A stretch of DNA of 64,000 bases from Chiloscyllium plagiosum (Eukaryota). Position numbers and translations under genes: made by a program. Under the pieces are notes generated by a model that was not told the DNA's origin, ran no database searches, and was given only the letters and a program-made list of their open reading frames with translations. The stretch is from positions 15,079,585-15,143,584 of the forward strand of contig NC_057752.1 in assembly GCF_004010195.1 (NCBI RefSeq). Reading direction: 5' to 3'. Of the stretch, positions 3,181-46,217 are shown in pieces; the stretch's first letter is position 1; each line of letters starts with the position of its first letter.

Positions 3181-4171
3181 GCCCTCCTTTTCGAATAACA
3201 ACTGAGGATAATAGAGTCATACAGCATGGAAACAGACTCTTCAGTCCAACTCGTCCGTGCCGACCCAGTCTCCTCATTTGAACTAGTCTCATTTACCTGC
3301 ATTTGGCCCGTATCCCTCTGTACCTTTCCTATCCATGTGCCTGTCCAAATGTCTTTTAAATGTTGTAATTGCAGTCACTTCTCAGCTTCCTCTGGCAGCT
3401 TGTTCCATACACATACCACATTCTGTATGAAAACGTTGCCCTCTAGCTCCCTTTTAAATCTTTTCCCTCTCACCTTGAACTTGTGCCCTCCAGTTTTCGA
3501 CTCCCTTACACTGGAGAAAGGACCTTGGCTATTCACCTTATCCTTCCTCTAGCAGGGCAACCAGAATTGTACACAGTACTCCAAATGTGCCCTTACTAAT
3601 GTCTTGTACAACCATAACATGACATGCCAACTACTGTACTCAGTGCTCTGACCAATGACGGCAAACATACAAAATGTCTTCTTCACCACCCTGTCTACCT
3701 GTGATGCCACTTTCAAGTAACTACCTGCACCCCTAGGTCTTGTTGTTCGACAACACTCCCCAGGGCCCTACCATTAACTGTGTAAGTACTGCCTTGGTTT
3801 GTCTTGCCAAAATGCAACACCTTGCATTTATCCAAATATATGTATTTATCTAAATTTATTCATCTGCCAGTCCTTGATCCACTGGCCCAGTTGATCAAGA
3901 GCCCATTGTACTCTTAGATAATTTCCTTTACTTTCCACTATACCACCAATTTTGGTGTCATCTGCAAGCTTATTAACCATGGCTCCTATATTCTCATTCA
4001 CATTGTTTATATAAATGACAAACAGTGGATCCAGCATTGATCCATGCAGCAAACCACTGGTTGCAAGCCTCCAGTCTGAAAAATCACCCTCCGTCTCCTA
4101 CCATCAAACCAATTTTGTAACCAGTTGGCTAGCTCTCCCTGGATCCTACGTGATCTAACCTTACTAACCAG

Positions 4172-4411
4172 AGTTTAGATCAGAGTGGTGCTGGAAAAGC
4201 ACAGCAGGTCAGGTAGCATCCGAGGAGCAGGAAAATCGACGTTTCGGGCAAAAGCCCTTTATTAAGAATAGATCAGGAATATTCCTGATGAAGGGCTTTT
4301 GTCAGAAACGTCGATTTTCCTGCTCCTCTAATGCTGTCTGACCTGTGCTTTTCCAGCACCACTCTGATCTAAACTCTGGTTTCCAGCATCTGCAGTCCTC
4401 ACTTTTGCCTT
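4172..4411. mobile_element. PLE family A fold-back mini-element (inverted terminal-repeat arms, no ORF)
   Basis: About 100-bp inverted arms (4168-4266 vs about 4283-4380); 14-bp TSD ACCTTACTAACCAG at 4158-4171 and 4412-4425; 3' end matches the GIY-YIG-bearing copy at 31698-32161. Confidence 0.85.
4285..4312 (+). ncRNA. Minimal hammerhead ribozyme motif (stem II closing pair mutated)
   Basis: CTGATGA-A-GGGC TTTT GTCA-GAAA-CG-TC; the sister arm shows the intact stem GGGC TTTT GCCC. Confidence 0.6.
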
Positions 4412-5304
4412 ACCTTACTAACCAGTCAACAATGTCGAAGGCCTTGCTAAAGCCCATGTAGACAACTCTACTCAATCTTTATTGCTCTGCCTTTATCTAT
4501 CTTCTTGGTCACCTCTTCAAAAAACTCAATCAAGTTTATAACAGGCTATTTCCCTCACACAAAGCTGCGCTGACTATCCCTTATCAGTCCTTGCCTTTCC
4601 ATATGCATGTAGATCCTGTCTTTCAGAATTCCCTTCAACAACTTACCCACTACTGATGTCACGCTCACCGGTCTCTAGTTCCCTGGCCTATCCTTGCAAC
4701 CTAAATAACAGTACAACATTAGCCATCCTGCAGTCTTCTGGCACCTCATATGTGGCTATCGATGATACAGATATCTCTGCTAGGGACCCCGCAATTTCTT
4801 CACTAGCTTCCCGCAATCTCCTGGGATACACTTAACACTACTGTTTGCATTTTGCTCCCACATCACCCTTGCTTCATTTGCACATCTCTTTAAATCTGTG
4901 CCCTCTCGATCTTGTTTCTTTTACAAGCAGAAATGGCTTCATACTATCTGTCCTGCCTGCCCATGAGTTTGAAAACCTCAGATCTCCTCTGTGTTGTTCT
5001 CTCCAGGGAGAACAGTCCTAACTTCTTCAAGCGATTTTGCAAGGCATGGCTGGGAATATTTGTCTACGTATGCTCCATTATTCAAGAAATAGTTCATTTC
5101 ATAAGTTACACTTAACATTGTAAAACTGGAGATTTTCCTGACTGACTGCTGGTCATCTTTTTTTTGTTGTGGTGTCAAATTAATCTCCATTGGCATCAGC
5201 TAATTAAAGTGCATTGTTTCTACTGATGTCATAATACAGTTAAAGGTTTATAGACCTCTCATACGTTATCCTTACATAATTCAGTCTCCATTTGTACGTT
5301 CACA

Positions 5305-6845
5305 GAATCATACAGTATAGCAGAAGCCCTTCGGCCCATTGAATTTGTACCACCAAAAATGCACTACTAGTTCCACTTCTCTGCGCAAGGCCCATTGCCT
5401 TGAATGTGATGACATTTCAAGGGCTCATCCAAGTACTTTTAAAGGTTTCCCGCCTCGACTATCCTCCCATGCAGTGGGTTCTAGATCCCCACCACACTCT
5501 GGCTGAACAGACTTTTCCTCAAATCCCCACTAAGCCTCCTGCCTTTTGCTTTAAAATTATGTCTCTTGTTACTGACTCTTTGACTAGTGGGCACAGTTGC
5601 TTTCTATTCACCCTGTCCATGCACGTCATAAATTTATACACCTCTTTCGGGTCCCCCACAACTTTCTTTCCTCCAAAGAAAACCACTTGAGCTTATCCAG
5701 CCTCTCTTCATCACTGAAATGGTCCATCCCAGACAACGTCCTGGTGAATCTCCTGTGCACCCTCTCCAGTGCAATCACATCATTCGTGTAGTGTGGTAAC
5801 CAGATGTGCACAAAGTACCCCAGCTGTGGCCTAACAAAAGTTCTGCACAATTTCAACATAACTTTCCTATTCTTATAAGCTATGCCAAAACTGTTAAATG
5901 CAAGTGTACCATATGCCTTAACTACCCTATTAACCTGTCTGCCACCTTCAGGGATTTGTGGACAAGCACCCCAAGGTCACTCTGTTCCTCTGAGCTTATT
6001 AGAGTCCTGCCATTCATTGAGGAACCCTTGTCTTGTGTCTTCTTCCAAAGTGCATCATCACACATTTATCAGGGTTAAATTTCATCTGTGACTGGTCTAC
6101 CCAATGTAACCCAACCATTTGTATTCCCTTGTAACCTAACATCATCATCACAATCAACCACCTGGCCAATCTTTCGCTAATCCGCAAACTAACTTATCAT
6201 GCTGCCATCCACATTCTCATGTCCGTCATTTATGAATATAGGAATAATAAGGAATCCATCATTGATTCTATTGCTAACTGGGCTCCAGTCTCACAAACAC
6301 CTTTTTACCATCACCCTCTGTCTCCTGTCCCAAAGCCAATTTTGGATAGTCATGATGTCATACAGCATGGAAACAGACCCTTTGGTCCAACTAATCCAAG
6401 TTGACAGTGTTCCCAAACTAAACTAGTCCTACTTGCCTGTGTTTAGCCCATATTCCTCCAAACCTTTCCTATTCATTCACTTATCAAATGACTTTTAAAT
6501 GTAACTACCTGTATCCACCACTTCCTCTGACAGTCCATTCCACACACTAACTACTCTCTGTGTAAAAAAGTTGCTCCTCATGTCCGTTTTCAAACCTTCT
6601 CCTCTCACCTCAAAAATATTCCCCCTAGTTTTGAACTCCCTCACCCCAAGGAAAAAGACCTTTGCTATTCTCCTTATCTATGCCCCTCATGATTTTATAA
6701 ACCTCTATGAGGTCACCCCATAAACTCCTACACTCCAGTGAAAAACATCTCAGCCTCTTTTTATAACTCAAACTCTGTGTTCCCAGTAACATCCTGGTAA
6801 GGTATTTTTTCTGAACCCTCTCCAATTTAGTAATATCCTTCCTAT
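5305..6845 (-). mobile_element. Nested CR1 LINE RT/3' fragments
   Basis: LKLCRTFVRPQLGYFVHIWLPHY..DVIALERVHRRFTRTL and MERVQKK..RSLWGDLIEVYKIMRGID remnants. Confidence 0.9.
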
Positions 6846-7526
6846 GAATGTAGGTTTGCTCGCTGAGCTGGAAGGTTTGTTTTCGGACATTTCATCACCA
6901 TACTAGGTAACATCTTCAGTGAGCCTCCAGATGAAGCACTGGTGGTAGGGCCTGCTTTCTATTTATATGTTTAGCTAAAACAGCAGCTAATGAACGTGAA
7001 AGACCTCATACAGACAACAAGCAAAACAAATGTCATTTATGAAATACTGTGCAAGAACTGTAACAAACACTACATTGGACAAACAGGCAGAAAACTAGCC
7101 ACCAGGATACATGAACATCAACTCACCACAAAAAGACATGACTCTCTCTCACTAGTATCCTCATACAGATGAGGAAGGGCACCAATTCGACTGGGACAAC
7201 ACATCCATCCGAGTACGAGCCAAACAGAGAGACACACATGAGAATTCCTAGAAGCATGGCATTCCAACCGGAACTCTATCAACAAACACATCGAGTTAGA
7301 CCCCACCTACCACCCTCTGAGAAAAGGAACAGGAAATGACATCACCAACCCATGGAACCCCAAACATATAAATAGAAAGCAGACTACACCACCAATGCTT
7401 CATCCGAAGGCTCGCTGAACATGTTACCTAATGGGAGATGTATTGTCTGAAAACGAACCTTTCAGCTCAGCGAGAAAACCTACATCCAGAAACTCAACCT
7501 GAGCTACAAATCTTCTCAGAACTCGC
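6846..7526 (+). mobile_element. PLE family C, 5'-truncated, GIY-YIG endonuclease plus 3' terminal repeat, with an inverted repeat copy at the 5' end
   Basis: NVIYEILCKNCNKHYIGQTGRKLATRIHEHQ (GIY-YIG); 6846-6972 is an inverted copy of about 7362-7487; 15-bp TSD TAATATCCTTCCTAT at 6831-6845 and 7527-7541. Confidence 0.9.
6886..6919 (-). ncRNA. Minimal hammerhead ribozyme motif, PLE family C
   Basis: Minus strand reads CTGAAGA-T-GTTACC TAGTAT GGTGAT-GAAA-TG-TC; 6-bp stem II with wobble pairs. Confidence 0.6.
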
Positions 7527-8905
7527 TAATATCCTTCCTATAGCAGGGCAACCGGAACTGAACACAGTAATCCAGGAAAAGGTCTGACTAACGTACTGTA
7601 CAACCTCAACATAACATCCCAACTTCGATACTCAAAAGGTCTGAGCATTGAAGACAAACGTGTAAGATGATGCCTTAACCACCCTGTCTACCTGTGATGC
7701 AAATTTCAAAGAATTATGTACTTGAACTCCTATGTCTCTGTTCCACAACACTAACCAGGACCCTACCATTGTTTGTATAGGTCCTGCCTTTATGGTTTAC
7801 CAAAATGTAATACTTCACATTTATCCAAATTAAACTCCATCTGCCACTCTTCAGCCCATTCAACCATTTAGCCATAGAGTCACAGAGATGTACAGAACGG
7901 AAACAGTCTGTCCAGTCCATGCTGAACAGATATCCTAAATTAACCTAGTCCTAGCATTTTGCCTATATCCCCCTCAACCCTTCCTATTCTTGTACCCATC
8001 CAGAAACCTTTTTAAATATTGTAATTGTACCAGCGTCCACCAGCAGCTCATTCCATACATGCACCACCCTCTGCATGAAACTTTTGCCCCTTAGGTGTCT
8101 TTTTAAATCTTTCTCCTCTCACCTTAAACCAACTATATGTTAGATTGGTTAGCAAGGTTAGATCACAAAGAATACAAGGAGAGCTAGCTATTTGGAGACA
8201 AAATTGGCTGGACGGTAGGAGACACAGGGCGGTGGTGGTGAATGGATCATGGATAGAGCATGGATCAGTACTTGGGGCTACGATGTTGTGGCCATAATGG
8301 AGATGTGGGTTTTACAGGGGCCATATAGTTCTGGACTCTCCTACCCCGGGAAAAAGATCTTTGCTGTTCACCGTATCCATTGCCCCTCATGATTTTATAA
8401 ACCTCTATAAAGTCACTCCTCACCCTCCAATGCTCCAGGGAAAACAGCCCCAGCCTATTCAGCCTCTCCCTATAACTCAAACCCTCCAACCCTGGCAACA
8501 TCCTTGTAAATCTTTTGTGAACCCTTTCAAGTTTCACAACATCTTTCCTATAGCAGGGAAACCAGAATGCAACTCCGTATTCGAAGGGTGGCCAAACCAA
8601 TGTTCTGTACAGCAACAACATGACCTCCCAACTCCTATACCCAATGCACTGCCCAATAAAAGGGCATGTGTACCAAGCGCCACCTTCGCTACACTGTCTA
8701 CCCATAAATCCACTTTCAAGGAACTATGAAATAAGAGACCACGGTCTTTTTGTTTAGCAGCTCTCTCAAGGACCTTACTATTAAGTGTATAAGTCCTACT
8801 GTGATTTGCCTTTGAAAAAATGCAGCACCTCATGTTTATTTAAATTAAACTCCATCTGCCACTCCTCAGCCCAATGGCCCATCTGATCAAGGACCTGCTG
8901 TACTC
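7527..8905 (-). mobile_element. CR1 LINE fragments (RT C-terminus) with an embedded inverted duplicate
   Basis: LYRTLVWPPFEYGVAFWFPCYRKDVVKLERVHKRFTRMLPGLEGLSYRERLNRLGLFSLE. Confidence 0.9.
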
Positions 8906-8907
8906 CG

Positions 8908-9542
8908 TGAGTCCGTGGTTAAGAAAGCAAGTGTAATGTTGTCGTTTATCTCAAGAGGGTTGGAATGTAAAAGCAGCAATGTGCTACTGAGACTTTATGA
9001 AGCTCTAGTTAGGCCCCATTTAGAATACTTTGTCCAATTTTGGGCCCCACACCTCAGGAAGGACACACTGGCACTAGCAAATGATCCCTGGAATGGTAGG
9101 CCTAACATACAATGCTGAGGATCCTTGGATTGTATTCATTAGAGTTTAGACGGTTGAGGAGAAATCTAAAAGAAACTTGCAAGATAATGCATGGCTTAGA
9201 AAGGGTGGACACTGGGAATTTGTTTCTCTCAGGCGGGGATACTAGGACCCATGGGCACAGCCTTAGAATTACTCGCAGTCAATTTAGAACAGAACTGAGG
9301 AGACATTTCTTCACCCAGAGAGCAGTGGACCTGCGGAATTCATTGCCACGGAGCGCAGTGAAGGCCGGGGCGTTAAATGTCTTCAAGGCAGAGATTGAAA
9401 CATTCTTGATCTCTCAAGAAATTAAGGGCTAAGGGGAGAGTACGGCTAAGTGGCGTTGAAATGCCCATCAGCCATGATTAAATGGCAGAGTGGACTCAAT
9501 GGGCTGAATGGCCTTACTTCCACTCCTCTGTCTTATGGTCTT
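8908..9542 (+). mobile_element. 5'-truncated CR1 LINE with TCTTATGGTCTTA tail
   Basis: [31 protein letters not shown]..; same subfamily as 11476-13440 in the opposite orientation; TACTC occurs at both flanks. Confidence 0.9.
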
Positions 9543-10770: not shown

Positions 10771-10771
10771 A

Positions 10772-11475
10772 TAGTTAGAGAGTTAGGTTGGAAGCGGAAG
10801 AGCAGGACGAGTAGAGTAGTGATCTCAGGTTTGCTACCGGTGCCACGAGATAGTGAGATGAGGAACAGTCAGCGAATGCAGCTTAACATGTGGCTGCGAG
10901 GCTGGTGCAGGAGGGAGGGCTTCAGATACCTAGACCATTGGGATACATTCTGGGGAAAGTGGGGCCTGTACATGAAGGACGGGTTGCACCTGAACTGAAG
11001 GGGCACAAATGTCCTGGGTGGGAGATTTGATCGTGTGATTCGGGAGGGTTTAAACTAGTTTGGCAGTGGGTTGGGAATCAGAGCCACATGTCTGAGAGGG
11101 GGTCAGTTGCAGAGGGACAGTGACAGGATATGTTGAATCTATCAGGAAGATTTCTCACGCAATTAAACAAAGGGATCGGTTAAAGTGTGTCTGCTTTAAT
11201 GCAAGGAGTGTCCAAAATAAGAGTGACGAACTTAAAGCATGGATCAATACTTGGGGTTACGATGTTGTGGCCATAATGGAGATGTGGGTTTTACAGGGGC
11301 AGGAATGGTTGCTTGATGTTCCAGGGTTTCGAATGTTTAAAAAGAACAGGGAGGGTGGATAAAGAGGAGGGAGGGGTGGAGCATTGCTAACCAGAGAGTG
11401 CATCAAAGCTACAAAAACTAAGGTTGTTGAGGAAAGTTTGTCTACTGAGTCAGTATGGGTGGAAGTTAGGAACAC
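10772..11475 (+). mobile_element. CR1 LINE ORF1 (SGNH/GDSL esterase-like) end and ORF2 APE endonuclease start
   Basis: VVISGLLPVPR..LNMWLRGWCRREGFRYLDHW..KDGLHLN, then KCVCFNARSVQNKSDEL..YDVVAI. Confidence 0.9.
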
Positions 11476-14680: not shown

Positions 14681-14689
14681 AAACTGACA

Positions 14690-17430: not shown

Positions 17431-17520
17431 CCGAGAGTGCGGAGGCACTGGAAAAGCACAGCAGGTCAGGCAGCATCTGAGGAGCAGGAGAATCAACGTT
17501 TCGGGCATAAGCTGACTGAT
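17431..17520 (-). mobile_element. PLE family A terminal fragment inserted in the third short SINE
   Basis: CTGGAAAAGCACAGCAGGTCAGGCAGCATC..AATCAACGTTTCGGGCATAAGC, flanked by CCAGAAG on both sides. Confidence 0.75.
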
Positions 17521-17755: not shown

Positions 17756-18083
17756 CCGACCAGGGAATTGCTGCACAACTGTCTGCCTCAGGCTGGGACT
17801 AGCCCATGTATGCCACAAGTCATGGCTCTGTTTTGGTGTTCAACCAGAAATGCTGTTCCTTTCCAGTCAGCTTTCCTGAGTTACACAGGACCCTATTATT
17901 ATTTTTACACACCTCAGTAAATTGCCTACATATCTGATTGTCAATTGCCTGATGACTTTTTGGGGGCCGACAATACACTTCTAACAGTGATCTGGAGGCG
18001 CTGGTGTTGGACTCAGGTAGGCAAAATTAAACATTTCACAACACCAGGTTATAGTCCAAATGGTTTATTTGGAAGTACAGTAC

Positions 18084-18112
18084 AAGCTTTCAAAGCGCTG
18101 CTCCTTCGTCAG
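18084..18112 (-). ncRNA. Minimal hammerhead ribozyme motif, PLE family B (core intact)
   Basis: Minus strand CTGACGA-A-GGAGC AGC GCTTT-GAAA-GC-TT; palindromic AAGCTT replaces stem III. Confidence 0.7.
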
Positions 18113-18518
18113 ATTGCTAGTGGGGCAGGATCGTAGGACACAGAATTTACAATAAAGGATCAAAGTGTCATACAACTGATGCAATGTACTGAGCAAACCT
18201 AGGTTGCTGGCAAGTCTTTAATCACTTAGAATGGAGTTGCAGGTTTGGATTCATTAATGTGTAAATACCTGAACTTCATTAGGAATTGATAAAATGTCAC
18301 TTGACTGCCTACAGAGCATGTGCTTTTTGATCAAACTAGAATGTAGTTGCAAATGCAAATTCACCCCATAGACCTATTTGTGTATACGTGCACGAGAGTG
18401 ACGGAGTATATGCATGTGAGAGGGTGAGTGTGGGTCTATGTGTCTGAGACAGGGTCTGTGTGTGTGTGTGTATATATAAATAATATATATATATTCCGGT
18501 TGACGTCATCCTCATCAG

Positions 18519-18698
18519 ATTACGTTACAGTGTGGAAACAGGCCCTTCGGCCCAACAAGTCCACACCGACCCGCCGAAGCGCAACCCACCCATACCCCTA
18601 CATTTACCCACACAGTCAGTCGCCTGAGGCAGGAATTGAACACTGGTCTCTGGCGCTGTGAGGCAACAGTGCTAACCACTGTGCCACCATGCCGCCCA
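18519..18698 (-). mobile_element. HE1 SINE with internal deletion, inserted in PLE family B
   Basis: Head and 3' tail joined at about 18610 with the V-domain missing; CTCATCAG at 18511-18518 and 18699-18706. Confidence 0.85.
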
Positions 18699-19737
18699 CT
18701 CATCAGTATCGAACTTCGCTGTCAGCCTGTGCTCGGCAACTCTGCATTGTTGTGTATCCAAAAGTCCACTTGGATGGTCACCCGAACATCTGAGGCCAAG
18801 TGTTCCTGACCGCTGAAGTGTTCCCCGATTGGAGGGAACATCCCTGTCTGGCAAATGTTGCATGATTCATCTGTTGTAGCATCTGCTTGGTCTCTCCAAT
18901 ATGCCAAGTCTTGGGGTATCCTTGCCTGCACCATATGAAATGGACAATGTTGACCGAGTCACATGAGTACCTTCCGTGCATGTGGTGGATGCTGTCCCCA
19001 CGTGTAATAGTGGTATCCGTGTCGACATTCTGACATGTCTTGCAATGGTTGCCATGACAGAATTGTATGATGTTGTGGTCAATGTTGTCCTAAAGGCCAG
19101 GCAGTTTGCTGTGAACAATGATCTGTTTGAGGTTTGGTGGTTGTTTAAAGGTGAGAAGTGGAGGCTTAGAAAAGGGCTTGGCAAAGTGCTCATCCTCATT
19201 GATAATGTGTTGCAGGCTGCGAAGAACATGGCGCAGTTTCTCCGCTCCCAGGAAGTACTGGACAACAAAGGGTGCCCTGTCAGTCGTATCCCATGACTGT
19301 CCCCTGAAGAGGTCATTACAGTTTCTCATTGTGGCACGTCAGAACTGGTGATTAATGTGTTGAGCATCGTATCCTGTTCTTATGAGGGCGTTCTTCAGCA
19401 CCTTCAGGTGTCTGTCGCGTTCCTCCTAATCTGAACAGATCCTGTGTATGCGTAGGAGATGGCTTTTTTCATATGTTTAGGGTGGAAGCTAGAGAAGTGT
19501 AGCATCGTGAGGTAGAATGAGATGCTGAGGTGCCCATCCTTGATGGAGATTCGTGTGTCCAAGAATGAGACTGATTCTAAAGAGTTGTGCGTATCAATAA
19601 ATCGAAACCTGCAACCCCATTCTAAGTGATTAAAGACTTAACAACAATCTAGGTTTGTTCAATATATCGCAACAGTTGTATGACACTTTGATTTTCACTA
19701 TAAATTCTGTGTCCTATGATCCTGTCCCACTAGATAC

Positions 19738-19766
19738 CTGATGAAGGAGCAGTGCTACGAAAGATT
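19738..19766 (+). ncRNA. Minimal hammerhead motif, PLE family B inverted arm (mutated)
   Basis: CTGATGA-A-GGAGC AGT GCTAC-GAAA-GATT; one stem II mismatch and a broken AGCT palindrome. Confidence 0.55.
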
Positions 19767-20969
19767 GTACTTCCAAATAAACCTGTTGGACTGTAACCTG
19801 GTGTTGTGTGATTTTTAACTTTAACAGTGTGACTGTTATCAGTGTATGATGTTTGCTTGCTTCAGTGGTAATGAAGATTGTTCAAGCTTCTCTGCAGTGA
19901 ATGTGTTCCATCAATGTGAGAAATGTTATTGCTGGGAAAGCGATCATTGTTGAACTTATTTTCACTTTTAGAACTCTTTTAGGTGCTCCCAACTCAAGTA
20001 TAGTACGGTTTAATAGTGGGTCCACTTTAATTTACCAATGTGCTCTTAATCCCATTTCAGCAAAATACAACCCATTGTCTCTATCAGATTGACATTGCGC
20101 CCACAAGCCACTCATACAATTTCTCAATGGATAATTCTGAGCACCTTTGTAGTGCTGGTTTGTGATTGGATTTTGTCAAGGTCAGGATGAGCCAAATGAA
20201 TTTTACTTGACATTCTTACAACTAGTAGAAGTACAAATGTGTTCATTGAACTGGATTTAGAAACTGAGAGAACAGTATCAAAATGTCCTAATAACACCAA
20301 ATTGGACAATATGTAAATTGTGATGAGGATCGTGAGAAGGACATTGGGACATCCTATAGAATTCATTGCAGAAAAATTCAATGTAATGGATTTTGAAAGT
20401 ATGTTAAATTAAAATACAGAAAAAACGGAGATGAGGAGAAAAGTAATCAAAGGTATAAACTTGTGCAGATAAAGACCTTTTATAGATAAAAAAGCAAACA
20501 AAATACTGGGGTTCATATCTGTAATTAGTTAATATAAAAGCTAAAACATAATGAATAATCTTTTGATTGTAGGTTGAGTATTATACTAGCTAAGATCTGA
20601 TGATTTTCTCCATATTATAGCACTGTTGATAGAAAAAAGGTGCAGGGAGGTTGTCAGGAATCAGTATTATTGTCTGAGTTCAGAAGAGAAGCCAGAGACA
20701 TTGCAGCATTTTTCACTGGAACTGAATTCTGGAATGAGCCAATTCTGAACATTTACTGTAAAGATAGTCGTGAGATTACCTCAGCTGATCAACAAAAGAA
20801 TGGACAAAAATCCCAAGTCATCACAAAAAAATCTAGGCCAGGGCGAAAATGCTATTTGCATGTAGTCTGGTTAGAATGTGGGATTGTCTGCCAAAACCCA
20901 CAGTTGCAGAGCAGTTCATTAGTATTATCAGAGGGAATTAGAGTTACTGGAAACAGGGGTAGAAAAGGA

Positions 20970-21195: not shown

Positions 21196-21939
21196 CTGTC
21201 TGTAGCTTTCTGTCCTCACTTGTTCATACTAAAGCCCATATGCCATAAATCTGTGTATCTCCTTTCCTCTCTCTGCCCCACTCTCCCTTCTTCTCCCTGT
21301 CTTTCTTCCCTTATTCTCTCTTTCCCCTATCTCACATTTCAGCTAGAGAGATGCAAAAAAGGTGTGCTGAAAAGGCACATATCTATGAGGAACAATTAAA
21401 CAAGTGGGCATTTCTTTCTCTAGAAAAGAGGAGACTGATTGAAGTCCTCAACACTATGAAATGGCGGAATAGAGGAGATGTAGAGATGATGTTCCAACTG
21501 GGTGGTGAAACCAGAACACAGGAAGAATAAGATAATAATTCCAATTAAGAACTGAGGAGAAACCTCTTTGTCTAGAGAGTAGAATGTGAAACATGCTTCC
21601 ACAAGCTGTTGAGTTGAATTGTATTGATGCATGCAAAGGGAAAATCAGTAAACAGCACAGAGGGGGAAAGGAATCAATGGATATGTTAATGGACTTCAGT
21701 GAAGAGAAGTGGGAGAAGGCTCATGTGGAGCATACATAGCAAAATGGACTAGTTGGGTTGAATAACCTGTTTTTATGCTGTCAATACTTTATAACCAATG
21801 CTTGTTTGTCTGAATGATTAGAAATACGTATAGATTCAATATAAACCAGTTACAGATGTATACAAACCAGAAGAACGATGTGCACATCTGGGTAGCCCTG
21901 CATGCAACCAAGGATTAGGTAAGAGTATGGCAGGTCGAA

Positions 21940-22160
21940 AATGTGGTACTGGAAAAGCACAGCAGGTGAGGCAACATTTGAGGAGCAGGAAAATCGGTGT
22001 TTCGGGGCAAAAACCCTTCAAAGGGAAGCCCTTCTTGATGAAGGGATTTTGTCCGAAACATTGATTTTCCTGCTCCTCAGATGCTGCCTGACTGGCTGTG
22101 CTTTTCCAGCACCATGCTCTAGACTCTGATCTCCAGCATCTGCAGTCCTCGTTTTCGCCA
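21940..22160. mobile_element. PLE family A fold-back mini-element
   Basis: Inverted arms (CTGGAAAAGCACAGC...CCCTTCA / TGAAGGG...GCTTTTCCAG) and 3' end TCTCCAGCATCTGCAGTCCTC; degenerate hammerhead TTGATGA..GAAACATT at 22035-22062. Confidence 0.8.
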
Positions 22161-26365: not shown

Positions 26366-26366
26366 T

Positions 26367-30459: not shown

Positions 30460-30652
30460 GAGCTGAAAATGTGTTGCTAGAAAAGCGCAGCAGGTCAGGC
30501 AGCATCCAAGGCGCAGGAGAATCGACATTTCGGGCATGAGCCCTTCCTGAAACATCGATTCTCCTGTTCCCTGGATGCTGCCTGACCTGCGCTTTTCCAG
30601 CAACACATTTTCAGCTCTGATCTCCAGCATCTGCAGTCCTCACTTTCTCCTA
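30460..30652. mobile_element. PLE family A fold-back mini-element
   Basis: Inverted arms of about 70 bp meeting within the hammerhead region; 13-bp TSD ATACCCTAGGTTA at 30447-30459 and 30653-30665. Confidence 0.88.
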
Positions 30653-31697: not shown

Positions 31698-32161
31698 GAG
31701 GAGAAAGTGAGATCTGCAGATGCTGGAGATTAGAGCTGAAAATGTGTTGCTGGAAAAGCGCAGCAGGTCAGGCAGCAAGACAAGGTGGGGGGATGGGAAA
31801 TGAGGAAACTGGTGAAATCCTTGTTCATCCCTTGTGGTTGGAGGGTTCCTCGGCGGAAGATGAGGCGCTCTTCCTCCAACCGTCGTTTTGTTGTGGTCTG
31901 GCGATGGAGGAGTCCAAGGACCTGCATATCCTTGGTGGAGTGGGAGGGGGAGTTGAAGTGTTGAGCCACAGGGTGGTTGGGTTGGTTGGTCCGGGTGTCC
32001 CAGAGGTGTTCTCTGAAACGCTCCGCAAGTAGGCTATGTTGACTCTGCCAGATGATGTGTGTGGAGGTGCAGGTGAATTTGTGGCGGATATGGAAGTTTC
32101 CTTTGGGACCTTGGAGAGAGGTGAGGGGGGAGGTGTGGGCGCAAGTCTTGCACCTCCTGCG
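31698..32161 (-). mobile_element. PLE family A, 5'-truncated with GIY-YIG region and internal deletions
   Basis: RRRCKTCAHT..FHIRHKFTCTSTHII..LAERFREHL..PVAQHFNSPSHS..RRLEEERLIF.GTLQPQGMN; TSD GAGGAGATTT at 31688-31697 and 32162-32171. Confidence 0.9.
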
Positions 32162-36257: not shown

Positions 36258-36269
36258 CGTGCATACATG

Positions 36270-37380
36270 TGTATTAGGAACTGAAGTTGGCCATTTGCTC
36301 CCACAAGCCTGTTCAACCATTCAGTAAGATTATAGCTTCCCTCTTTATTTCCAATTCCATACTTCTATGCATCCTGATAACCTTTAATTCCCCTACCTAA
36401 CACAAATCTAGCTCCACCTTGAACCTGTGCGGTACTTTAGCATTGTATGTCGCAGAAGGTGGCAAAAGTCAGGCAACCCTCTGTGAAAGAAGAAAAAAAA
36501 TTCCTCATCTCCATTCTAAAAGGGTCACCCTTAATTTTTAAACAGTGCCACCTAGTTCTGGATTCATCCACATCCATCCCCCTTTTCAAGACTGTAGTGG
36601 TTGTAATGAGGTCAGCCAGGTGGACCTCAGAATGTAAGCTCTGGATAGTGAGCAGAGAGGAGGGAAAGGGGCAGGTGTTGCACCTTCTGTGGTTACATGG
36701 GAAGATGCCTTTGGGGGTGGGGGTGTGGGTGTGGGTGGTGGGTGGTTAGTGGTCGATGAATGGACTAGGGTGTCTCGGAGGGAATGATCCTGAAATAACT
36801 GCACGCAGCATTCATGATATGGTCTCACTGAAGCTCTTTGTAACTGAAGAATAATTGAATCCTTAGTCCTGTTTTCAATTCTTCTTATACTCACGATGGC
36901 ATTCCAGTAGCTGCCTTAATTATTTGCTGGGTCATTCAAGGCTGGGATGGACAGACTGGAAAGTGAAGTTGAGGATTATCAGATCAGCTGTAATGTCATT
37001 GAATGACGAAGTAGACTTGATGTGCTGAAACGTCTACTTCTGCTCCTATGCCTGGTAACTGGAAGCTCACCTTTATCCATAATGCGTACTCCCTTGAATA
37101 GCTCTGATAAATTGATGAAACGTCATTTCCCTTTAATGAGGCCATGCAGACTCTTTCCTTATTTTTTTCTAAATGCCCAGCTATAACCACTTGTTGTTTT
37201 CAGCTTCCTCCCTTTTTTTACAGTTATTGTTGTATTTGATGATGTTTGCAGTCTGATGGGACCTTTCCAAAATCCAGTGAATTTTGGAGAATGAACATCA
37301 ATGCATCTGCAACCTTATGAGCTACCTCATTTAAGATCCTAGGGATAAAGTCCATCACAATCTGGAGACTTGTCCCCTAG
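36270..37380 (-). mobile_element. Old CR1 fragments with an embedded PLE piece at about 36620-36795
   Basis: CR1 remnants; embedded minus-strand DHSLRDTLVHS..GIFPCNHRRCNTCPF, the Cys-rich linker of a PLE ORF. Confidence 0.65.
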
Positions 37381-37619: not shown

Positions 37620-40130
37620 GAATCAGTGAGTTTCTTGACACATTGTTTGCTCCAATTCAAGCTTGGGATGGCCAAGCTTGAGGGGCAGCTGGCATCATTA
37701 CAGAACACTAGGGATGTTCGGAATTTCCTTGGATCATACATTCTCTGAGCCAAACACCGTACAAGCAAGGAGGGGCCAGGATAACAGATGGGTGATCATT
37801 CAGTAGAGGAGGTAGTGCAGCTGTCTTTGGCATGTGCGCCACTCTCAAACAGATATTCAGTGTTGGAGTATGGGATGGCAATACCCAAAGGTGTGCAACC
37901 CAGACCATGGCATGAATGGACAAGAGACTGCACCGGACAGAAAAGCAAAAGACAGAATTGAAGTCATAATAGGAAATTCCATAGTCAGGAGGGCAGGTAG
38001 GTATTTATGTCTCCGTCATTGTGAATCCTGCATGATATATTGCTTCCCTGGTGTCAGGGTTAAAAAAAAAAAGTCATGGAGAGGTTGCAGAATATTCTAC
38101 AGGGTGAAAAGAGTAAGTCAGAAGTTATAATACATGATGATACCAAAGACATAATGAGGGCAGATATTGGGGTTGCAAGGGTGGGTTTTCTGGAGCTGTA
38201 GCGGGTGTTTAAAAAGTTGGACCTCAAGGTAATGCTAAGCACTGATCTTATGAAATTAGGAAAATAAGGAGGATTTGAAGCATTGTCCAGGAGGGAGGAC
38301 TTCAGAATCTAGAGCATTGTAAGTAGTTCTGTGACAGAAGGTACCTACTCAGAAGGGACGTGTTGCACCCCAACAGAACTGTCATTTCACCAATGACATG
38401 GCAGGGAGGTTCATTTGCCTGGTTGGGGAGAGTCTAAATTAAATTATCAGGAGGATAGCTGCCATCATTTAAAAGTATAAAAAAGGAATGAGGTACGCAT
38501 AATAAGAGTGTTGGACAACACTAGAGGAGGAGTGGATTATAAAGGACAATAAGGAATTTGAAGTCAGGATACAAACATATGGGTAAACATGTAGAATGTG
38601 AATAAGGTTGATGAGTTAAAAGACTAAATGGCAGTGTGTGAATATGATGTGGCAATAACAGTGTCTCAGAATTGTTAGAACACAAAAAGAGACCATTCAG
38701 CCCATCATGCTTGCATCCATTCCATTACCTACTGCCAAAGTCCTGCCTTTCCCCTTTAGCCCTGCACACTATTTCAATCCACCACATTTCCAGGCAGTGC
38801 ATTCCATACCCTAACGACTTGCTGTTTGAAAAAGTTTCTTTTGCGTATCACTTTACCTCCATGCCTTCTCATTCTTGTTCCTTTTATGAGTGGGAATGGC
38901 TTCTCCTGATCTACTCTATCCAGCATGCTCATGATTTTGAAAACTTCTGTCAAGCTTTTTCGCAGCCTTCTTCTCTCCAAGGAGAACAGTCCCAACTTCT
39001 TCAATCAGTCCTCATAACTGAGGTTTCTCATTCCTTGAACCATTCTTGTAAATCACTTTTTGCACTCTCTTCAGTGCATTCACATATCTTCTTTAATGTA
39101 TTGCCCCTAACTGTACACAGTACAGCAGCTGAGGTCTAATAAGTATCTTATACATGTTCTACATCATGTACTCTGTGTCCCTATTAATAAAGCTAAGGGC
39201 ACTGTATGCTTAACGTACTGCTCTCTCCACCTGTCTCGCCACCTTCACTGATCTGTTCTTGCAACCAATGTGTATCAGCTCACATTTATCTGCATGGAAC
39301 CTCATCTGCCACCTCCATCAACTTGGCAATGCCCTTTTGGAGTCTCTCACTGCCCTCCTCACAGTTTACAACTCTTCCAAATCTTGTTTCATCTGAAAAC
39401 TTTGAAATTGTCTCTTGCACACTGAGATCCAGATCATTGATATATATATCAGGAAAAGCAAGGCTCTTCAAAAAGGTGAATTTCTTAAATATAGTTTCCC
39501 CTTTAGAAGTCCGTACTGACCCTTCCTAATTGGCACATCATTTTCTAAGTGACGACTGATTCTATCCTGAATAATTGTTTCTAGAAGTTTTCCTACCATC
39601 AAATTAACACTGACTGATAATTGATGGGATGATCTTTTCAACCTTTCTTGAACATGGTTATAATATTTGCTATTCTTCAGTCTTCTGGCATCGCCCTAAT
39701 TTTGGGGAAGACTGAAAAATTTCAATTAGTACCTCCCCAATTTCTACCCTCGCCTCGCTGAAAATCCTTGGATGCATTCATTCTGGTGCTGATGCCTTGT
39801 CAACTTGTAAGTACCAACAATCTATCCAAAACCTGGTCCATATTAAGTCCTTATAAATATGCCTTAAAACAGTAAGTACGCAGCGCTTGTTGTAAAAGGA
39901 TAGAAAGTGGAATAGATAGGAAAGCAAAAAGGGAGATAGGCGGCATTGCTGATATGGGAAGTGTTAGAAAGAGGGCCTGTCTCTTGAGAGGGCAAAAGTT
40001 GAAAACAAAAAAGGTAAGATTACAGTCTACTTAGAGTATTTTGTAAGCCTGCAACTATTGAATGGGAGATTGAAGGAAAAAAAGTTGGTATAGAAATTAC
40101 CTGTTCAAGAAATGTACGGTGGTGATATAG
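37620..40130. mobile_element. Old + strand CR1 ORF1/APE remnants interrupted by - strand CR1 RT fragments (about 38670-39835)
   Basis: VIIGNSIVR..MIYCFPGVRV (esterase block) on +; KKLGLFSLERRRLRKSLTEVFKIM and IYINDLD..KFSDET on -. Confidence 0.75.
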
Positions 40131-42000
40131 AGACATAGCAAATAGGAACAGGAGTAGGTCATTGCAGCCCTAGAAGCCTGCTCTACGATTCAACATGATC
40201 ATGGCTAATCATACAACTCATAGAATCACAACATCCTTACAGTGTAGAAACAGGCCATTAGGCCCAACAAGTCCACACAGACCATTCCCCCTACCCTGTT
40301 ACTCTACATTTACTTCTGACTAATGCACCTACCCTGCACATCCCTGAATACTGTGGACAATATAGCGTGGCCAATTCACCTAACCTGCACGTCTTTGGAT
40401 TGCGGGTGGAAACTGGAGCACCCAGAGGAAACCCACGCAGACACGGGGAGAATGTGCACACTCCACACAGACAGACAGTCACCCAAGGCAGGAATCGAAC
40501 CCTGGACCCTGGTGCTATAAGGCAGCAGTGCTAACCACTGAGCCACCGTGCTGCCCTACTTTCAGTACCCTACTCCCGCTTTCTCCCCATACCCTTTCGT
40601 CCTAAGAATTGTATCTAACTGCTTCTTGAAAACCTTCAGTGTTTCGGCCAGAACCGCTTTTTGTGGCAGAGAATTCCACAGGCTCACCACTCTGGGTGAA
40701 GACATTTCCTCCTCATGGAAGTCTTAAATGGCCTACCCAGTATGCTGAAACTGTGACCCTGGCTCTGAACTGCCTGGACAGTGGTGACATCCTTCCACCA
40801 TTTGCCCTGACTAGTCCTTTTTGAAATTTGACCAATCCAGTCCCTCTTCTTAATCAATCCTACCACCCCAAGAATCAATCTGGTAAATCTTTGTTGCATC
40901 CCCTCCATATCCAAAACATCCTTCCTCAGGTAAGGAGACCAAAAGACACACAAGGTTTCAAGTCTGGTCTTACCAAGACCCAGGACCAATGCAGTAGGTT
41001 GTTAATCGCCTAAATTTGTCTGTTTGTCTAATAAATTGCATCAGTTGTATGACACTTTGATCTTTTACTTATAAATTCTGTGTCCTATGTATCCTGCTCT
41101 ACTAGTTGATTTTCAACTTTGTCCACCCCAGTCCAAAACCAGCACCTCCACATCAATTGCAGTGAGACATCCCTGCCCCTACATGCAAATTCCCTTGCTG
41201 TCAAGGCCAACATACCATTTGCCAAATTCACCGCCTGCTATACCTGCCTGCTTGCTTTCAGTGACTGGTGTACAAGGATACCTGGGTCTTGTTGCACCTC
41301 CCTCTTTCTGAATCTACTGCCATTTAGATAATAATCTGCCTTCCTGTTTTTGCTGCCACATTTTTCCACCATAATTTTCCACATTATGCTTCATTTGTCA
41401 TGTATTTGTCCACTCCCTCAGTTTATCCAAATCACACTAAAGCATCTCTGCATCTGCCACTCAGCCTTGTGCTTTCTGCAAACTTGGCAGTATGTGATTC
41501 TCTCATTGCAATCTTTAATAAATATAGTGTATATCTGGGGTTAAAGCACTGATCCTAGCGGTATCCCGCTAGTCACTGGCCTTCTGAAAGTCCAAGTAAG
41601 CCATATGTGCTCGCTCCCCCCTTATCAACTCTCTAGTTCCGTGGTGAAACATTTCAGTAGTCTTGTCAAGCAAATCACTTTCGTAAATCCATGCTGAGTC
41701 TGTCACTTGTTTTCCAAGTGCTCAGCTACTAAATCTTTTTATAATGGACTTTTGCATTTTCCTACTACCATGTCAAGCTAATCAGTTTGTTAATACCTAT
41801 TTTCTCCCTACTTCCTTTATTAAATATTGGGGTTACGATAGTTACCCTCCAATGCATAGAAACTGTTCGAGTCTAAAGAATCTTGAAAGATGACTACTAA
41901 CGCATCCATTGTTTCTATGGCCACTTCTATGGTACTCTAGGATGTAAATTATAAGGCCCAAGAGATTTATCAGCCTTTAATTCTGTCAATTTCCCCAACA
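40130..42000 (-). mobile_element. CR1 LINE RT/3' end, with a partial PLE family B terminal repeat at about 41015-41155
   Basis: FWSPYLRKDVLDMEGMQQRFTRLI; embedded CAGTTGTATGACACTTTGAT..ATAAATTCTGTGTCCTATG matches 19672-19720. Confidence 0.8.
40220..40557 (-). mobile_element. HE1 V-SINE
   Basis: Complete head, V-domain and tail. Confidence 0.9.
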
Positions 42001-42239
42001 TGTTTGTGTATATGGAAGGAAAGCACATTGGTTGGCCATCTATTTGGTGCTAATTATGATTTCCCCTGTTTCTGACTGTAACGGACTTACATTTGTCTTA
42101 AGTAATTGTTTTCTCTTCACATCCCTATAAAAGCTGTTGCAATCAATTTGTGTGTTTCCTGTAATCAGTCAATTTGGTTGTAATATTCAAGTAGTGATAT
42201 TATCCCAATCAATATTTGAGAAATTAACATTGATTAGAA

Positions 42240-44650
42240 TGCAGGAGAGACATGTTCTTGTGAGAATGAAGGATAGAAATGGCACAATTAGGGAACCATG
42301 AATGGCAGGTGAAATCGTGAGGTGAGCTAAGAGGAAAAAGGAAGCATAGTTTAAGGTCTCAGCGACTGTAGACAGATGAAGCTTTGGAAGAATATTAGGA
42401 ACGCAGGACCAATCTGAAACAAGGAATTAAGAGGGCTAAAAGGGGTCATGAAATATCTTTAGCAAACAGGGTTAAGGAAAATCTCAAAGCCTTTTATTCA
42501 TATATACGGAGCAAGAAAGTAACTTGGGAAAGGGTTGGCCCACTCAAGGACAAAGGAGGAAAGTTATGCCTGGAGTCAGAGAAAATGGGTGAGATCCTTG
42601 CATCGGTATTCACCGAGGAGAAAAACATGATGTTAGGGATAGATGTTTGATTACTCTAGGTCAAGTCGACAAAAGGAGGGAGGAAGTGTTGGGTATTCTA
42701 AAAAGCATTAAGGTGGACAAGTCCCCAGGTCCAGATGGAATCTATCCCAGGTTACTGAGGAAAGCGAAAGAGGAAATAGCTGGGGCCTTAACAGATATCT
42801 TTGCAGCATCCTTGAACACGGGTGAGGTCCCGGAGGACTGGTGAATTGCTAATGTTGTCCCCTTGTGTAAGAAGGATAGCAAAGATAATCCAGGTAATTA
42901 TAGACCGGTGAGCCTGACGTCAGTGGTAGGGAAGCTTTGATTTGATTAGATTAGATTAGATTAGATTACAGTGTGGAAACAGGCCCTTCGGCCCAACAAG
43001 TCCACACCGACCCGCCGAAGCGCAACCCACCCATACCCCTACATTTACCCCTTACCTAACACTACGGGCAATTTAGCATGGCCAATTCACCTGACCTGCA
43101 CATCTTTGGACTGTGGGAGGAAACCGGAGCACCCGGAGGAAACCCACGTAGACACGGGGAGAACGTGCAAACTCCACACAGTCACTCGCCTGAGGCGGGA
43201 ATTGAACCCAGTCTCTGGTGCTGTGAGGCAGCAGTGCTAACCACTGGGCCACCGTGCCGCCCACAAAGCTGCTGGAGAAGATACTGAGGGAAAGGATCTC
43301 TTCCCGTTTGGAAGAGAATGGGCTTATCAGTAATATTGTGCCCACCTCTACCATCTCCATGGTGGCGAGTGCCAGTGGAGATGGTAGAGGTGGGCACAAT
43401 AGTGCCATTTAAGATGCATGATAGACAGATACATGAATAGGCAGGGAGCAGAAGGTCATGTCTTATCAACATAATAGAATTCTTTGAGGAAGTGACAAAG
43501 TTGATTGGTGAGGGAAGGGCTGTAGATGTCATATACATGGACTTCAGTAAGGCGTTTGACAGGGTTCACCATGATCGGCTGATGGAGCAAGTGAAGTTAC
43601 ATGGGGTCCAGGGTGTACTAGCTAGATGGATGAAGAAGTGGCTGGACAACAGGCGACAGAGAGTAGTAGTGGAAGGGAGTTTCTCAAAATTCAGACTTGT
43701 GACCAGGGATCTGTGCTGGGGACTATGGTTGTTTTTGATGTACATAAATGTTCTGGAGGAAGGTATAGGTGGTCTGATTAGCAAGTTTGCAGCTGACACC
43801 AAGATTGGTGGAGTAGCAGACAGTGAAGGGGACTGTCTGAGAATGCAACAAAATATAGATAGATTGGAGAGTTGGCACAGAATGGCAGATGGAGTTCAAT
43901 CCGGACAAATGCGAGGTGATGCATTTTGGAAGATCCAATTCAAGAGCGAACTATACAGTATGTGGAAAAGCCCTGAGGATAATTCGGAGAGATCTGGGTG
44001 TTCACGTCCATTGTACCCTGAAGGTGGCAATGCAGGTCAGTAGAGTGGTAAAAAAGACATGCAGCTCTTGAGTAGAAGAGTTGGTAGGTCATGTTACAGT
44101 TGTATAAGACTTTGGTTTTGCCACATTTAGAATACTGCATACAGTTCTGGTCGCCACATAACCAAAAGGGTGTAGATGCTTTGGAGAGAGTGCAGGGGAG
44201 GTTCACCAGGATGTTGCCTAATATGAAGAGGGGTTGAGTAGATTAGGATTATTTTCATTAGAAAGACAGCGGTTGAGGAGGGAACCTGATTGAGGTCTAC
44301 AAAATCATGAGAGGTATAGACAGAGTGGATAGCAAGAAACTTTTTCCCCCAGAGTGGGGGACTCACTTACTAGGGGTCACGAGTTCAAGGTGAGAGGGGA
44401 AAAGTTGAAGGGAGATATGTGTGGGAAGTGCTTTATGCAGAGGGTGGCAGGTGCCTGGAACACATTGCCAGTGGAGATGGTGGAGGTGGGCACAATAGCG
44501 CCATTTAAGATGCATCTAGACAGATACATGAATGGGCAGGGAGCAGAGGGATACAGATCCTTAGAAAATAGGCGACAGGTTTAGATAGAAGATCTGGATC
44601 AGCGCAGGCTTGGAGGGCCGAAGGGCTTGTACCTGTGCTGGAATGTTCTT
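42240..44650 (+). mobile_element. CR1 LINE ORF2 to 3' end
   Basis: KSPGPDGIYPRLL, DVIYMDFSKAFDRVHH, SKFAADTKIGG, TRGHEFKVRG. Confidence 0.95.
42937..43263 (-). mobile_element. HE1 V-SINE, young full-length copy
   Basis: Reverse complement GGCGGCACGGTGGCCCAGTGGTTAGCACTGCTGCCTCACAGC..GGGTTCAATTCCCGCC, V-domain and long (AATCT)n tail; AAGCT at both flanks. Confidence 0.95.
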
Positions 44651-45434
44651 TATTCTTTGTTTGTTCTTAATTTTAGAGAACAGGGGAGGAAATTTCTGAA
44701 AAGTGTTCCAGTGAACTGGAAGTCCTTGTCCACTGAGGTTGCACAAGTGTCAGGTTGGGGACCTTGCTGTTTGTGGTTTATATAAATGATTTAGACTTGA
44801 ATGGAGGATTGATCAGTATGTTTGCGGATAATACAAATGTTGTTGGAGTGGTAAATAGTGGATAGTCCAGATTACAGGACATACAGACAGTGGTAAATGG
44901 AATTCAATCCAGATAAACATGAGGTGATGAACGTGAGCAGAACAAACAAGGCAAGGGAATACCTGGTGAATGGAGAAAAGAAGGCTTAGGGGTGACTTGA
45001 TAGAGGTGTACAAGATGATTAGGGGTTTAGATAGGGTTGACCGTGAGAACCTTTTTCCACGTATGGAGTCAGCTATTACGAGGGGGCATAGCTTTAAATT
45101 AAGGGGGGGTAGGTATAGGCCAGATGTTAGGGGTAGGTTCTTTACTCAGCGAGTTGTGAGTTCATGGAATGCCCTGCCAGTAGCAGTGGTGGACTCTCCC
45201 TCTTTATGGGCATTTAAACGGGCATTGGATAGGCATATGGAGGATAGTGGGCTAGTGTAGGTTAGGTGGGCTTGGATCGGCGCAACATTGAGGGCCGAAG
45301 GGCCTGTACTGCGCAGTATTCTTCTATGTTCTATGACCCTGGGAAACACTGAGGATCAGAGAGAACTTGGTGTGCATGTACACCAGTCCCTTCAGGCTTC
45401 AGGACGGTGCATAAATTGGTTGAGAAGGAATATG

Positions 45435-45560
45435 AGGAGGAAGTGAGGGCTGCAGATGCTGGAGATCAGAGCTGAAAATGTGTTGCTGGAAAAGCGCAGC
45501 AGGTCAGGCAGCATCCAGGGAACAGGAGAATTGACGTTTCGGGCATAAGCCCTTCTTCAG
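45435..45560 (-). mobile_element. PLE family A single-arm mini-insertion
   Basis: 12-bp TSD AGAAGGAATATG at 45423-45434 and 45559-45570; consists only of the hammerhead plus 3' terminus. Confidence 0.88.
45533..45560 (-). ncRNA. Minimal hammerhead ribozyme motif, PLE family A (core and stem II intact)
   Basis: Minus strand CTGAAGA-A-GGGC TTAT GCCC-GAAA-CG-TC. Confidence 0.75.
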
Positions 45561-46094
45561 AAGGAATATGGTATATTTGTCTTTATTAGTCAAGGCATGG
45601 AGTTTAAAAGCAGGGAGGTTACGCTGGAACTGTATAAAGTGTTGGTTAGGCCACAGCTGCAGTATTGTGTGCAGTCCTTGTAATGCATCCACATTACAAG
45701 GAGGGATGTGATTTCACTGGAGAGGATGCAAAGGAGATCTACCAGGGGCTGGAAAATTTTAGTTATGCAGAGAGACTGGGGTTGTTTTCCTTGGAGCAAA
45801 AAAGACAAAGTGAGGGCATGATTGAAATATATAAAATTACACATAAATAGGGTTGACAGGCAGGAACGTTTTCCCCTTGATGAAGGGATCAATGACCACA
45901 AGACATAGATTTAAGGCAAGTGGCAGGAGGTTTAAAGGAGACATAAGGAAAGTTTTTTCACCCAGAGGATGGTGGAAATGTGGAACTCACTGCCGTAAGA
46001 AGCCCTCAACTTTTAAAAAGTATTTAAATGTACACATGCAATGCAGGTGTGCAGGGCTATGGGCCAAATGCTGGAAAATGGGATGAGAATACTT

Positions 46095-46217
46095 AGGAGA
46101 AAGTGAGGATTGCTGATGCTGGAGATCAGAGTCGAAGGGTGTGGTGCCGGAAAACAGCATCCGAGGAGCAGGAGAATCAAGAGAATCAACGTTTCAGGCA
46201 AAAGCCCTCCATTAGGA
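46095..46217 (-). mobile_element. PLE family A terminal fragment
   Basis: AGGAGAAAGTGAGGA..GATGCTGGAGATCAGAG..AACGTTTCAGGCAAAAGCCCT; hammerhead core decayed (CTAATGG). Confidence 0.75.

What the first reader, a model, noticed from the sequence alone, without database searches (positions are those of the whole stretch)
4158..46217. Three different Penelope-like families each carry a minimal hammerhead ribozyme
Seen: the terminal repeats of three PLE families with otherwise dissimilar sequence share CUGANGA, one extra nucleotide, stem II, GAAA-NN-UH. Family A has GGGC/GCCC (45533-45560 -, 4285-4312 +), family B GGAGC/GCTYY-like (18084-18112 -, 19738-19766 +) and family C GTTACC/GGTGAT (6886-6919 -). 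Stem II differs in sequence and length but still pairs. Stem III is replaced by a palindromic tetramer (ACGU or AGCU). Established: PLEs encode minimal type I hammerheads lacking a proper helix III, thought to act as dimers. Inference: these shark families were catalytically active; whether they have been characterised I cannot tell.
Basis: partly seen in the sequence, partly recalled or inferred. Interest (0 to 1): 0.7.

Follow-up and report, generated by a model that had tools for sequence, protein, structure and literature searches.

The report
Minimal hammerheads in three shark Penelopes
Three unrelated families of Penelope-type jumping genes in a likely shark genome each carry, in their end repeat, the tiny predicted self-cutting "hammerhead" RNA motif already known for this class, so the finding is real but ordinary; its one useful twist is that in one family the motif also holds the gene's stop codon and likely its start codon, which a cut would remove.

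Summary
Real, and of a known kind. The two core boxes are at all five stated places. Only three copies keep a stem II closed at its base (0.025 expected by chance), and the family C tetramer there is AUGU, not ACGU/AGCU. All three repeats are Penelope-like elements: GIY-YIG remnants, inverted pseudo-LTRs, a one-sided 30-40 nt tail, target duplications. A and B look Neptune-like; C is Poseidon-like and closest to fluke elements. Related sharks restore most of the decayed letters, so B and C meet the published minimal-hammerhead descriptor. Family A shows only a 2-bp helix I. No window copy is intact. In C the reading frame stops in the first core box and likely restarts at A9, as in the anole element. 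Nine of nine family A arms begin upstream of the cut site, so uncut RNA was likely the template. Cleavage was not tested. This scan noted the same thing before (770 notes, at least 36 genomes).

The parts
4172..4411 (.). Family A fold-back insertion A1 (two pseudo-LTR arms head to head; tail only on the right arm); 14-bp target duplication at 4158-4171 and 4412-4425
4285..4312 (+). Family A hammerhead core, boxes intact, stem II broken by two changes
4238..4265 (-). Family A hammerhead on the inverted arm, stem II intact, C3, G5 and G8 changed
21937..22159 (.). Family A fold-back insertion A2; decayed cores at 22035-22062(+) and from 22024(-)
30460..30652 (.). Family A fold-back insertion A3, inversion inside the hammerhead; 13-bp target duplication
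17448..17512 (-). Family A stub A4, begins inside stem II, lacks the first box
45435..45560 (-). Family A stub A5; best-preserved core 45533-45560; C3-U4 fall inside the 12-bp target duplication (45423-45434, 45559-45570)
46087..46218 (-). Family A stub A6; decayed core 46188-46215
31698..32161 (-). Family A copy A7: CxxC linker and GIY-YIG remnant (31829-32161) joined to the pseudo-LTR end by a deletion that removes the hammerhead; 10-bp target duplication
17990..19821 (-). Family B truncated element B1: RT end, Cx4CxxC linker, GIY-YIG remnant (about 18780-19600), 3' pseudo-LTR with tail, inverted 5' pseudo-LTR (19593-19821); 8-bp target duplication
18084..18112 (-). Family B hammerhead, 5-bp stem II with two wobbles; TATA-like site at 18151
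19738..19766 (+). Family B hammerhead on the inverted arm, decayed; TATAAA at 19699
41022..41149 (+). Family B copy B2, pseudo-LTR with the hammerhead deleted
6846..7526 (+). Family C truncated element C1: inverted pseudo-LTR (6846-6974), GIY-YIG remnant (6975-7340), 3' pseudo-LTR with 38-nt tail; 15-bp target duplication (6831-6845, 7527-7541)
6886..6919 (-). Family C hammerhead, 6-bp stem II; AUG at 6913-6911 (A9, extra U, G10.1); TATAAA at 6967
7415..7447 (+). Family C hammerhead of the 3' pseudo-LTR, strongly decayed; the GIY-YIG frame stops at U4-G5-A6 (7416-7418); TATAAA at 7367

Best explanation
These are decayed, truncated insertions of three Penelope-like retrotransposon families whose pseudo-LTRs each carry a minimal type I hammerhead motif, likely a weak self-cutting RNA that would need a partner copy or the element's own protein to fold. 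Shown: element anatomy, the motif, the paired stems in related sharks, and in family C the overlap with the reading frame. Inferred: a TATA-type promoter starts the RNA about 4-20 nt before C3, so the hammerhead is the front end of the messenger and appears again at its 3' end; reverse transcription starts 40-100 nt downstream of it at two sites (the tail) and copies uncut RNA; the cut, when it happens, would clip off the cap and, in family C, the start codon and nine codons. I rate the identity at about 0.95 and the reading 'a regulatory or processing cut that insertion does not need' at about 0.5.
For: Anatomy: target duplications of 14, 13, 12, 10, 8 and 15 bp at 6 of 10 loci tested (a 7-bp match at A4 is not counted); GIY-YIG Pfam match in C (25 bits, cut-off 22.6); A7 72% identical to a Chiloscyllium protein with GIY-YIG; B hit by that family at E 1.7e-9 and 43% identical to an 881-aa RT-linker-GIY-YIG protein. 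Stems: family B majority gives a perfect 5-bp stem II, triplet CUA and a 3-bp helix I; family C majority gives helix I UCA/UGA (6885 G>A in 95-98% of depth) and ACGU in 48-70%. The three families share no flank homology (best blastn piece with E under 0.05 is 10-11 nt around the TATA box). C frame: both arms match the N-terminus of fluke protein P0020 in register from Met1 (scores 37 and 41; 1 of 500 shuffles reached 41), and the shark C proteins group with P0016, P0018, P0020 at 100/99. Family A: 9 of 9 arms at 6 loci begin 4 nt before to about 18 nt after C3, none at the cut. TATAAA lies 39 nt (B) and 48 nt (C) before C3. Published parallel: anole Poseidon (PMC11167929).
Against: No cleavage, transcript start or cap was observed. 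Family A helix I is 2 contiguous bp and fails the 3-bp descriptor; its native upstream sequence was not obtained. The left-arm N-terminal score alone is not significant (best hit of 120 was an unrelated protein at 38; 7 of 500 shuffles reached it). At C position 11.1, C is only 37-46% of depth, so a G-U closing pair may be a real subfamily rather than decay. Core-versus-flank identity across families (11 of 16 against 5 of 60 columns) is partly circular because the core defined the search, and A5's upstream flank is target DNA. CpG decay inside the C core is like that outside it, so most genomic copies are under no visible constraint. The family B table hid 40 of 80 rows. The runs laid are related organisms, not shown to be the window's species.
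Confidence: 0.8

Rival explanations
1. Same motif, but the cut is an obligatory processing step: two hammerheads of a tandem transcript pair through the palindromic tetramer, release a unit-length RNA, perhaps circularised, which is the template (Cervera and De la Pena model).
For: Palindromic tetramers ACGU (A, about half of C) and AGCU (B); dimers cleave weakly in vitro (PMC4209133; review passage PMC6765202).
Against: 0 of 9 family A arms begin at the cut site; core mutants do not impair insertion in vitro in the anole element; the paired cores at each locus here lie on opposite strands, so one transcript carries only one sense copy.
Confidence: 0.3
2. The motif is a non-cutting relic or a protein-binding and coding-constrained element in these shark families.
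For: 2-bp helix I in family A; helix I absent from all five predicted folds; overlap with start and stop codons could hold some letters in C; two window copies, A7 and B2, lack the motif.
Against: Both boxes, the extra base, G10.1 and fully pairing stems of 4, 5 and 6 bp persist in three unrelated families, two of which have no long frame over the motif; among long relatives the second box is read in two different frames (ET[SL] in 30 and KR[LPQ] in 7 of 120 N-termini, many redundant), which coding alone does not explain.
Confidence: 0.15
3. Chance matches of short boxes in repetitive DNA.
For: The loose pattern has about 6 chance matches per window; no Rfam match.
Against: 3 strict matches against 0.025 expected, each in the same position of a Penelope pseudo-LTR; family C is 27 of 34 nt identical to a published fluke motif.
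Confidence: 0.01

Closest known systems
Minimal hammerheads (min-HHR) of metazoan PLE pseudo-LTRs, Cervera and De la Pena 2014 (PMC4209133; main text parts 1-2 of 4 and the whole supplementary PDF read)
   Same: Two boxes, extra base after A9, G10.1, stem II of 3-7 bp, short helix I, palindromic 15.2-16.2, second copy on the opposite strand of truncated elements.
   Different: Their alignment of 56 motifs from 40 species lists no cartilaginous fish. Family A helix I is 2 bp, below their descriptor but like their Drosophila, Culex and Oikopleura rows.
Clonorchis sinensis (1) min-HHR (row of Fig. S3, PMC4209133) and fluke PLE proteins P0016, P0020
   Same: 27 of 34 nt identical to the family C majority from C3 to H17; same AUG at A9 and same K-R-L frame across the second box; proteins 49-53% identical and one clade.
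   Different: Host phylum; helix I 4 bp in the fluke motif, 3 bp here.
Poseidon element PAc of Anolis carolinensis, Frangieh et al. 2024 (PMC11167929; parts 1-2 of 4 read)
   Same: [quoted passage not shown]
   Different: PAc was assayed (protein-assisted cleavage, dispensable for insertion); nothing here was. Families A and B are Neptune-like and show no long frame starting in the motif.
Non-LTR retrozymes (bioRxiv 10.64898/2026.07.22.740005; part 1 of 5 and passages read)
   Same: Type I hammerheads related to PLE pseudo-LTRs; reported in one chondrichthyan genome.
   Different: Retrozymes are head-to-tail tandem units; the copies here are solo or inverted stubs with coding remnants.

Membership tests
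PLE minimal type I hammerhead (descriptor Fig. S7, PMC4209133) | CUGANGA plus optional base; GAAANNUH | tested here: met
   no majority change in either box except N7 and 15.2 in C (complete table); B table partly hidden
PLE minimal type I hammerhead (descriptor Fig. S7, PMC4209133) | Stem II 3-7 bp, loop 3-10 nt | tested here: met
   A 4 bp/4 nt, B 5/3, C 6/6; broken in 2 of the 5 stated copies
PLE minimal type I hammerhead, families B and C | Helix I of 3-7 bp | tested here: met
   B UAC/GUG, C UCA/UGA in the majority of related runs; the window copies at 18084 and 6886 have 2 and 0 pairs
PLE minimal type I hammerhead, family A | Helix I of 3-7 bp | tested here: not met
   UC/GA, then U-U, then A-U; native upstream sequence not obtained; 2-bp helices occur among published PLE variants, so A is filed as a variant
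PLE minimal type I hammerhead | G10.1-C11.1 closing pair and palindromic tetramer | tested here: inconclusive
   met in A and B; in C split between G-C and G-U (C 37-46%) and between ACGU and AUGU
PLE minimal type I hammerhead | Self-cleavage at H17 as dimer or with protein | not testable with these tools
   needs a bench assay
Endonuclease-positive Penelope-like elements | RT followed by C-terminal GIY-YIG | tested here: met
   remnants in C1, A7, B1; relatives carry RVT_1 and GIY-YIG
Endonuclease-positive Penelope-like elements | Pseudo-LTR, inverted 5'-truncated copy, 30-40 nt tail at one end (PMC8557442 passages) | tested here: met
   A1, A2, A3, B1, C1
Neptune clade (A, B) and Penelope/Poseidon clade (C) | CX2-5CxxC linker present or absent; placement among named references | tested here: inconclusive
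   linker present in B, in A relatives and partly in A7, absent in C relatives; no labelled clade references were in the tree
Non-LTR retrozymes | Head-to-tail tandem units each with a hammerhead | tested here: not met
   copies are solo or inverted

The most novel reading that the evidence does not exclude
The Penelope hammerhead is a feedback switch at the front of the messenger: the element's protein binds its own RNA just downstream, lets the hammerhead fold, and the cut removes the cap and the start codon, shutting off translation while uncut RNA serves as template. Family C, with stop and start codons inside the core and the same layout kept between sharks and flukes, would be the test case.
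Probability: 0.25. Interest if true: 0.6.

Novelty: new member of a known kind. Interest (0 to 1): 0.25.

Why it matters
The motif class is established, so the finding extends its range to three shark families. What the ribozyme does for Penelope elements is still open. These families give natural test cases: a 2-bp helix I in a family with many copies (A), and a core that carries the frame's stop and likely start codon (C).

Tried and rejected
No whole genome is held, so no genome-wide consensus or count. Rfam at E up to 5: no hammerhead family; the mir-722 match at 4234-4318 is the A1 fold-back. Family A pattern: 0 matches in metagenome and viral contigs; P0010 found no related locus in metagenomes. 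No RNA holder listed for family C. One poly(A) single-cell run laid on B (624 reads, both strands, 98% running on unlike) showed no place where many molecules begin or end; that library cannot map such ends well, so it counts neither way. Pfam found nothing in the A7 and B remnants themselves. No compensatory change within a family could be shown: none among 8 family A arms; C has minor alleles at both sides of helix I pair 3 (12-19% and 5-8%) whose linkage the table cannot give. The long helix I that can be drawn at 4273-4321 comes from the inversion junction and was rejected (folds it as a local hairpin). The other 8 loose matches lack stem II. Horizontal transfer from flukes is not claimed: about 50% protein identity and thin sampling. 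Searches in print: searches found no paper on shark PLE hammerheads; Lunse et al. (dimers) is not held and was seen only as a citation; the closed supplement of the retrozyme preprint, and Repbase or Dfam, may already hold these families.
Full report
Observation. The loose pattern is barely above chance (13 matches, 5.96 expected). Requiring GAAA-NN-UH and a stem II of at least 4 bp closed at its base leaves 3 matches, one per family, against a mean of 0.025 in 200 shuffles. The copies at 4285 and 19738 have lost the closing pair. The family C tetramer is AUGU. Rfam has no match, and predicted folds form stem II in 3 of 5 copies and helix I in none. So every window copy is damaged.

What the repeats are. 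Self-comparison finds seven family A loci, two of B and one of C. Six of these ten have target duplications of 8-15 bp. A1, A2, A3, B1 and C1 are inverted structures; where both ends are kept, only one carries a further 30-40 nt, the tail described for Penelope-like elements (PMC8557442, passages). C1 holds a GIY-YIG domain whose best relatives are 67-87% identical carpet-shark proteins. A7 is 72% identical to a Chiloscyllium protein; a second one has a Cx4CxxC linker and GIY-YIG. B1 holds the RT end, a Cx4CxxC linker and GIY-YIG remnant, related to shark proteins and to an 881-aa RT-endonuclease protein. A and B therefore look Neptune-like and C Poseidon-like; the clade names rest on the linker motif, not on labelled references. 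The three pseudo-LTRs share no homology outside the boxes.

Family sequences. No genome is held, so I laid public runs of related organisms on B and C. For B (four runs; 40 of 80 variant rows shown) the majority restores stem II to five Watson-Crick pairs, the triplet is CUA, the tetramer AGCU, and helix I is UAC/GUG. For C (four runs; complete table of 22 rows) helix I is UCA/UGA, 15.2 is C in 48-70% of depth, and 11.1 is C in 37-46%; the last may be a real G-U subfamily, as in the published fluke motif. Both meet the descriptor of Cervera and De la Pena. For A, eight window arms give the consensus core, a 4-bp stem II and only UC/GA as contiguous helix I. That fails the 3-bp minimum but resembles published 2-bp variants. 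CpG sites inside the C core decay about as much as those outside: the bulk of copies are neutral fossils, and conservation is informative only between families. There, 11 of 16 box columns against 5 of 60 flank columns are identical, a partly circular test; the extra base, G10.1, paired stems of different sequence and the common position are the non-circular part.

Overlap with the reading frame in C. The frame from the AUG at A9 (6913) aligns without gaps from Met1 to the N-terminus of fluke protein P0020; the right arm continues in register. Scores were 37 (not the best of 120 N-termini, and 7 of 500 shuffles reached 38) and 41 (best; 1 of 500). Majority letters give V-T-K-R-L across the second box, as in P0018. 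In a tree of 41 selected proteins (of 134 then held) the four shark C proteins group with P0016, P0018 and P0020 at 100/99. The published Clonorchis (1) motif is 27 of 34 nt identical and has the same AUG. The cut would fall after nt 28 of the frame. At the other end the GIY-YIG frame runs 58 codons through the TATA box and stops at U4-G5-A6. A one-in-three chance applies to that stop. Shark proteins P0002 and P0004 show a sister subfamily, one base shorter upstream, whose frame runs on to loop II (inferred from peptides). The anole Poseidon element has the same start overlap (PMC11167929), so this is known in outline.

Copy ends and promoter. Nine arms at six family A loci begin at -4, -4, -3, -3, -3, about +1, +6, +11 and +18 relative to C3; none begins at the cut (+29). 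A7 was left out because a deletion spans the motif. A crude uniform model gives about 1e-4, with the interval chosen after the fact. TATAAA lies 39 nt before C3 in B and 48 nt in C (the C right-arm figure printed there as 50 used a C3 position 2 nt off). That would put starts about 9 and 20 nt before C3. The Drosophila Penelope promoter is described as TATA-less (PMC2377424, passages), so this is a prediction, not a known trait. The TATA idea and the stop-codon idea came from earlier notes of this scan; the clustering of ends was noted before I read them.

Mechanism. Shown: anatomy, motif, stems, frame overlap, copy ends. Taken from papers: no monomer and low dimer cleavage; protein-assisted cleavage, dispensable for insertion, and no RNA-seq ends at the cut in the anole. 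Inferred: the hammerhead is the front of the transcript, uncut RNA is copied, and the cut is a regulatory or processing side step that would remove cap and start codon. The rival, obligatory dimer processing to a unit-length or circular template, remains open; nine arms cannot exclude a few percent of cut-site ends.

Novelty. The class is in print since 2014 and was assayed in 2014 and 2024. Seven searches found no paper on shark PLE hammerheads, and the 2014 alignment lists no cartilaginous fish, but a 2026 preprint reports hammerhead retrozymes in one chondrichthyan (supplement closed). This scan holds 770 notes with the same words. Verdict: new members of a known kind, interest 0.25.

Noticed in passing
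window 31698-32161 and 41022-41149: Two copies (A7, B2) have internal deletions that remove the whole hammerhead yet keep the 3' end and tail; template jumps across the structure or later deletions.
   Followed up: no
window 6975-7340; proteins P0001-P0004, P0016, P0018, P0020: Shark family C groups with liver-fluke elements (100/99) ahead of tapeworm, snake and coral ones; about 50% identity, so old kinship or old host-parasite transfer.
   Followed up: partly
window 36590-36792 (-): A further Neptune-like linker fragment without pseudo-LTR or hammerhead.
   Followed up: partly
window 4270-4289: The A1 inversion junction holds a third 9-nt piece of the 5' end, making a perfect 16-bp palindrome; all three pieces begin at the same base, 4 nt before C3.
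   Followed up: partly
window 18514-18708: A dispersed SINE-like repeat (19 self-matches) and a (TG)/(TA) run are nested inside element B1.
   Followed up: no
window 43331-43404: Near-perfect 33-bp hairpin inside a LINE remnant; weak Rfam microRNA matches far below their cut-offs.
   Followed up: no
proteins P0002, P0005: Shark gene models absorb family C sequence: P0002 reads through the hammerhead, and a MAP3K7 isoform (P0005) ends in the endonuclease; probably annotation artefacts.
   Followed up: no
proteins P0070-P0103: Many coral-type Poseidon relatives begin MTSAQVVETSV, which would encode the second hammerhead box in another frame; their DNA was not seen.
   Followed up: partly
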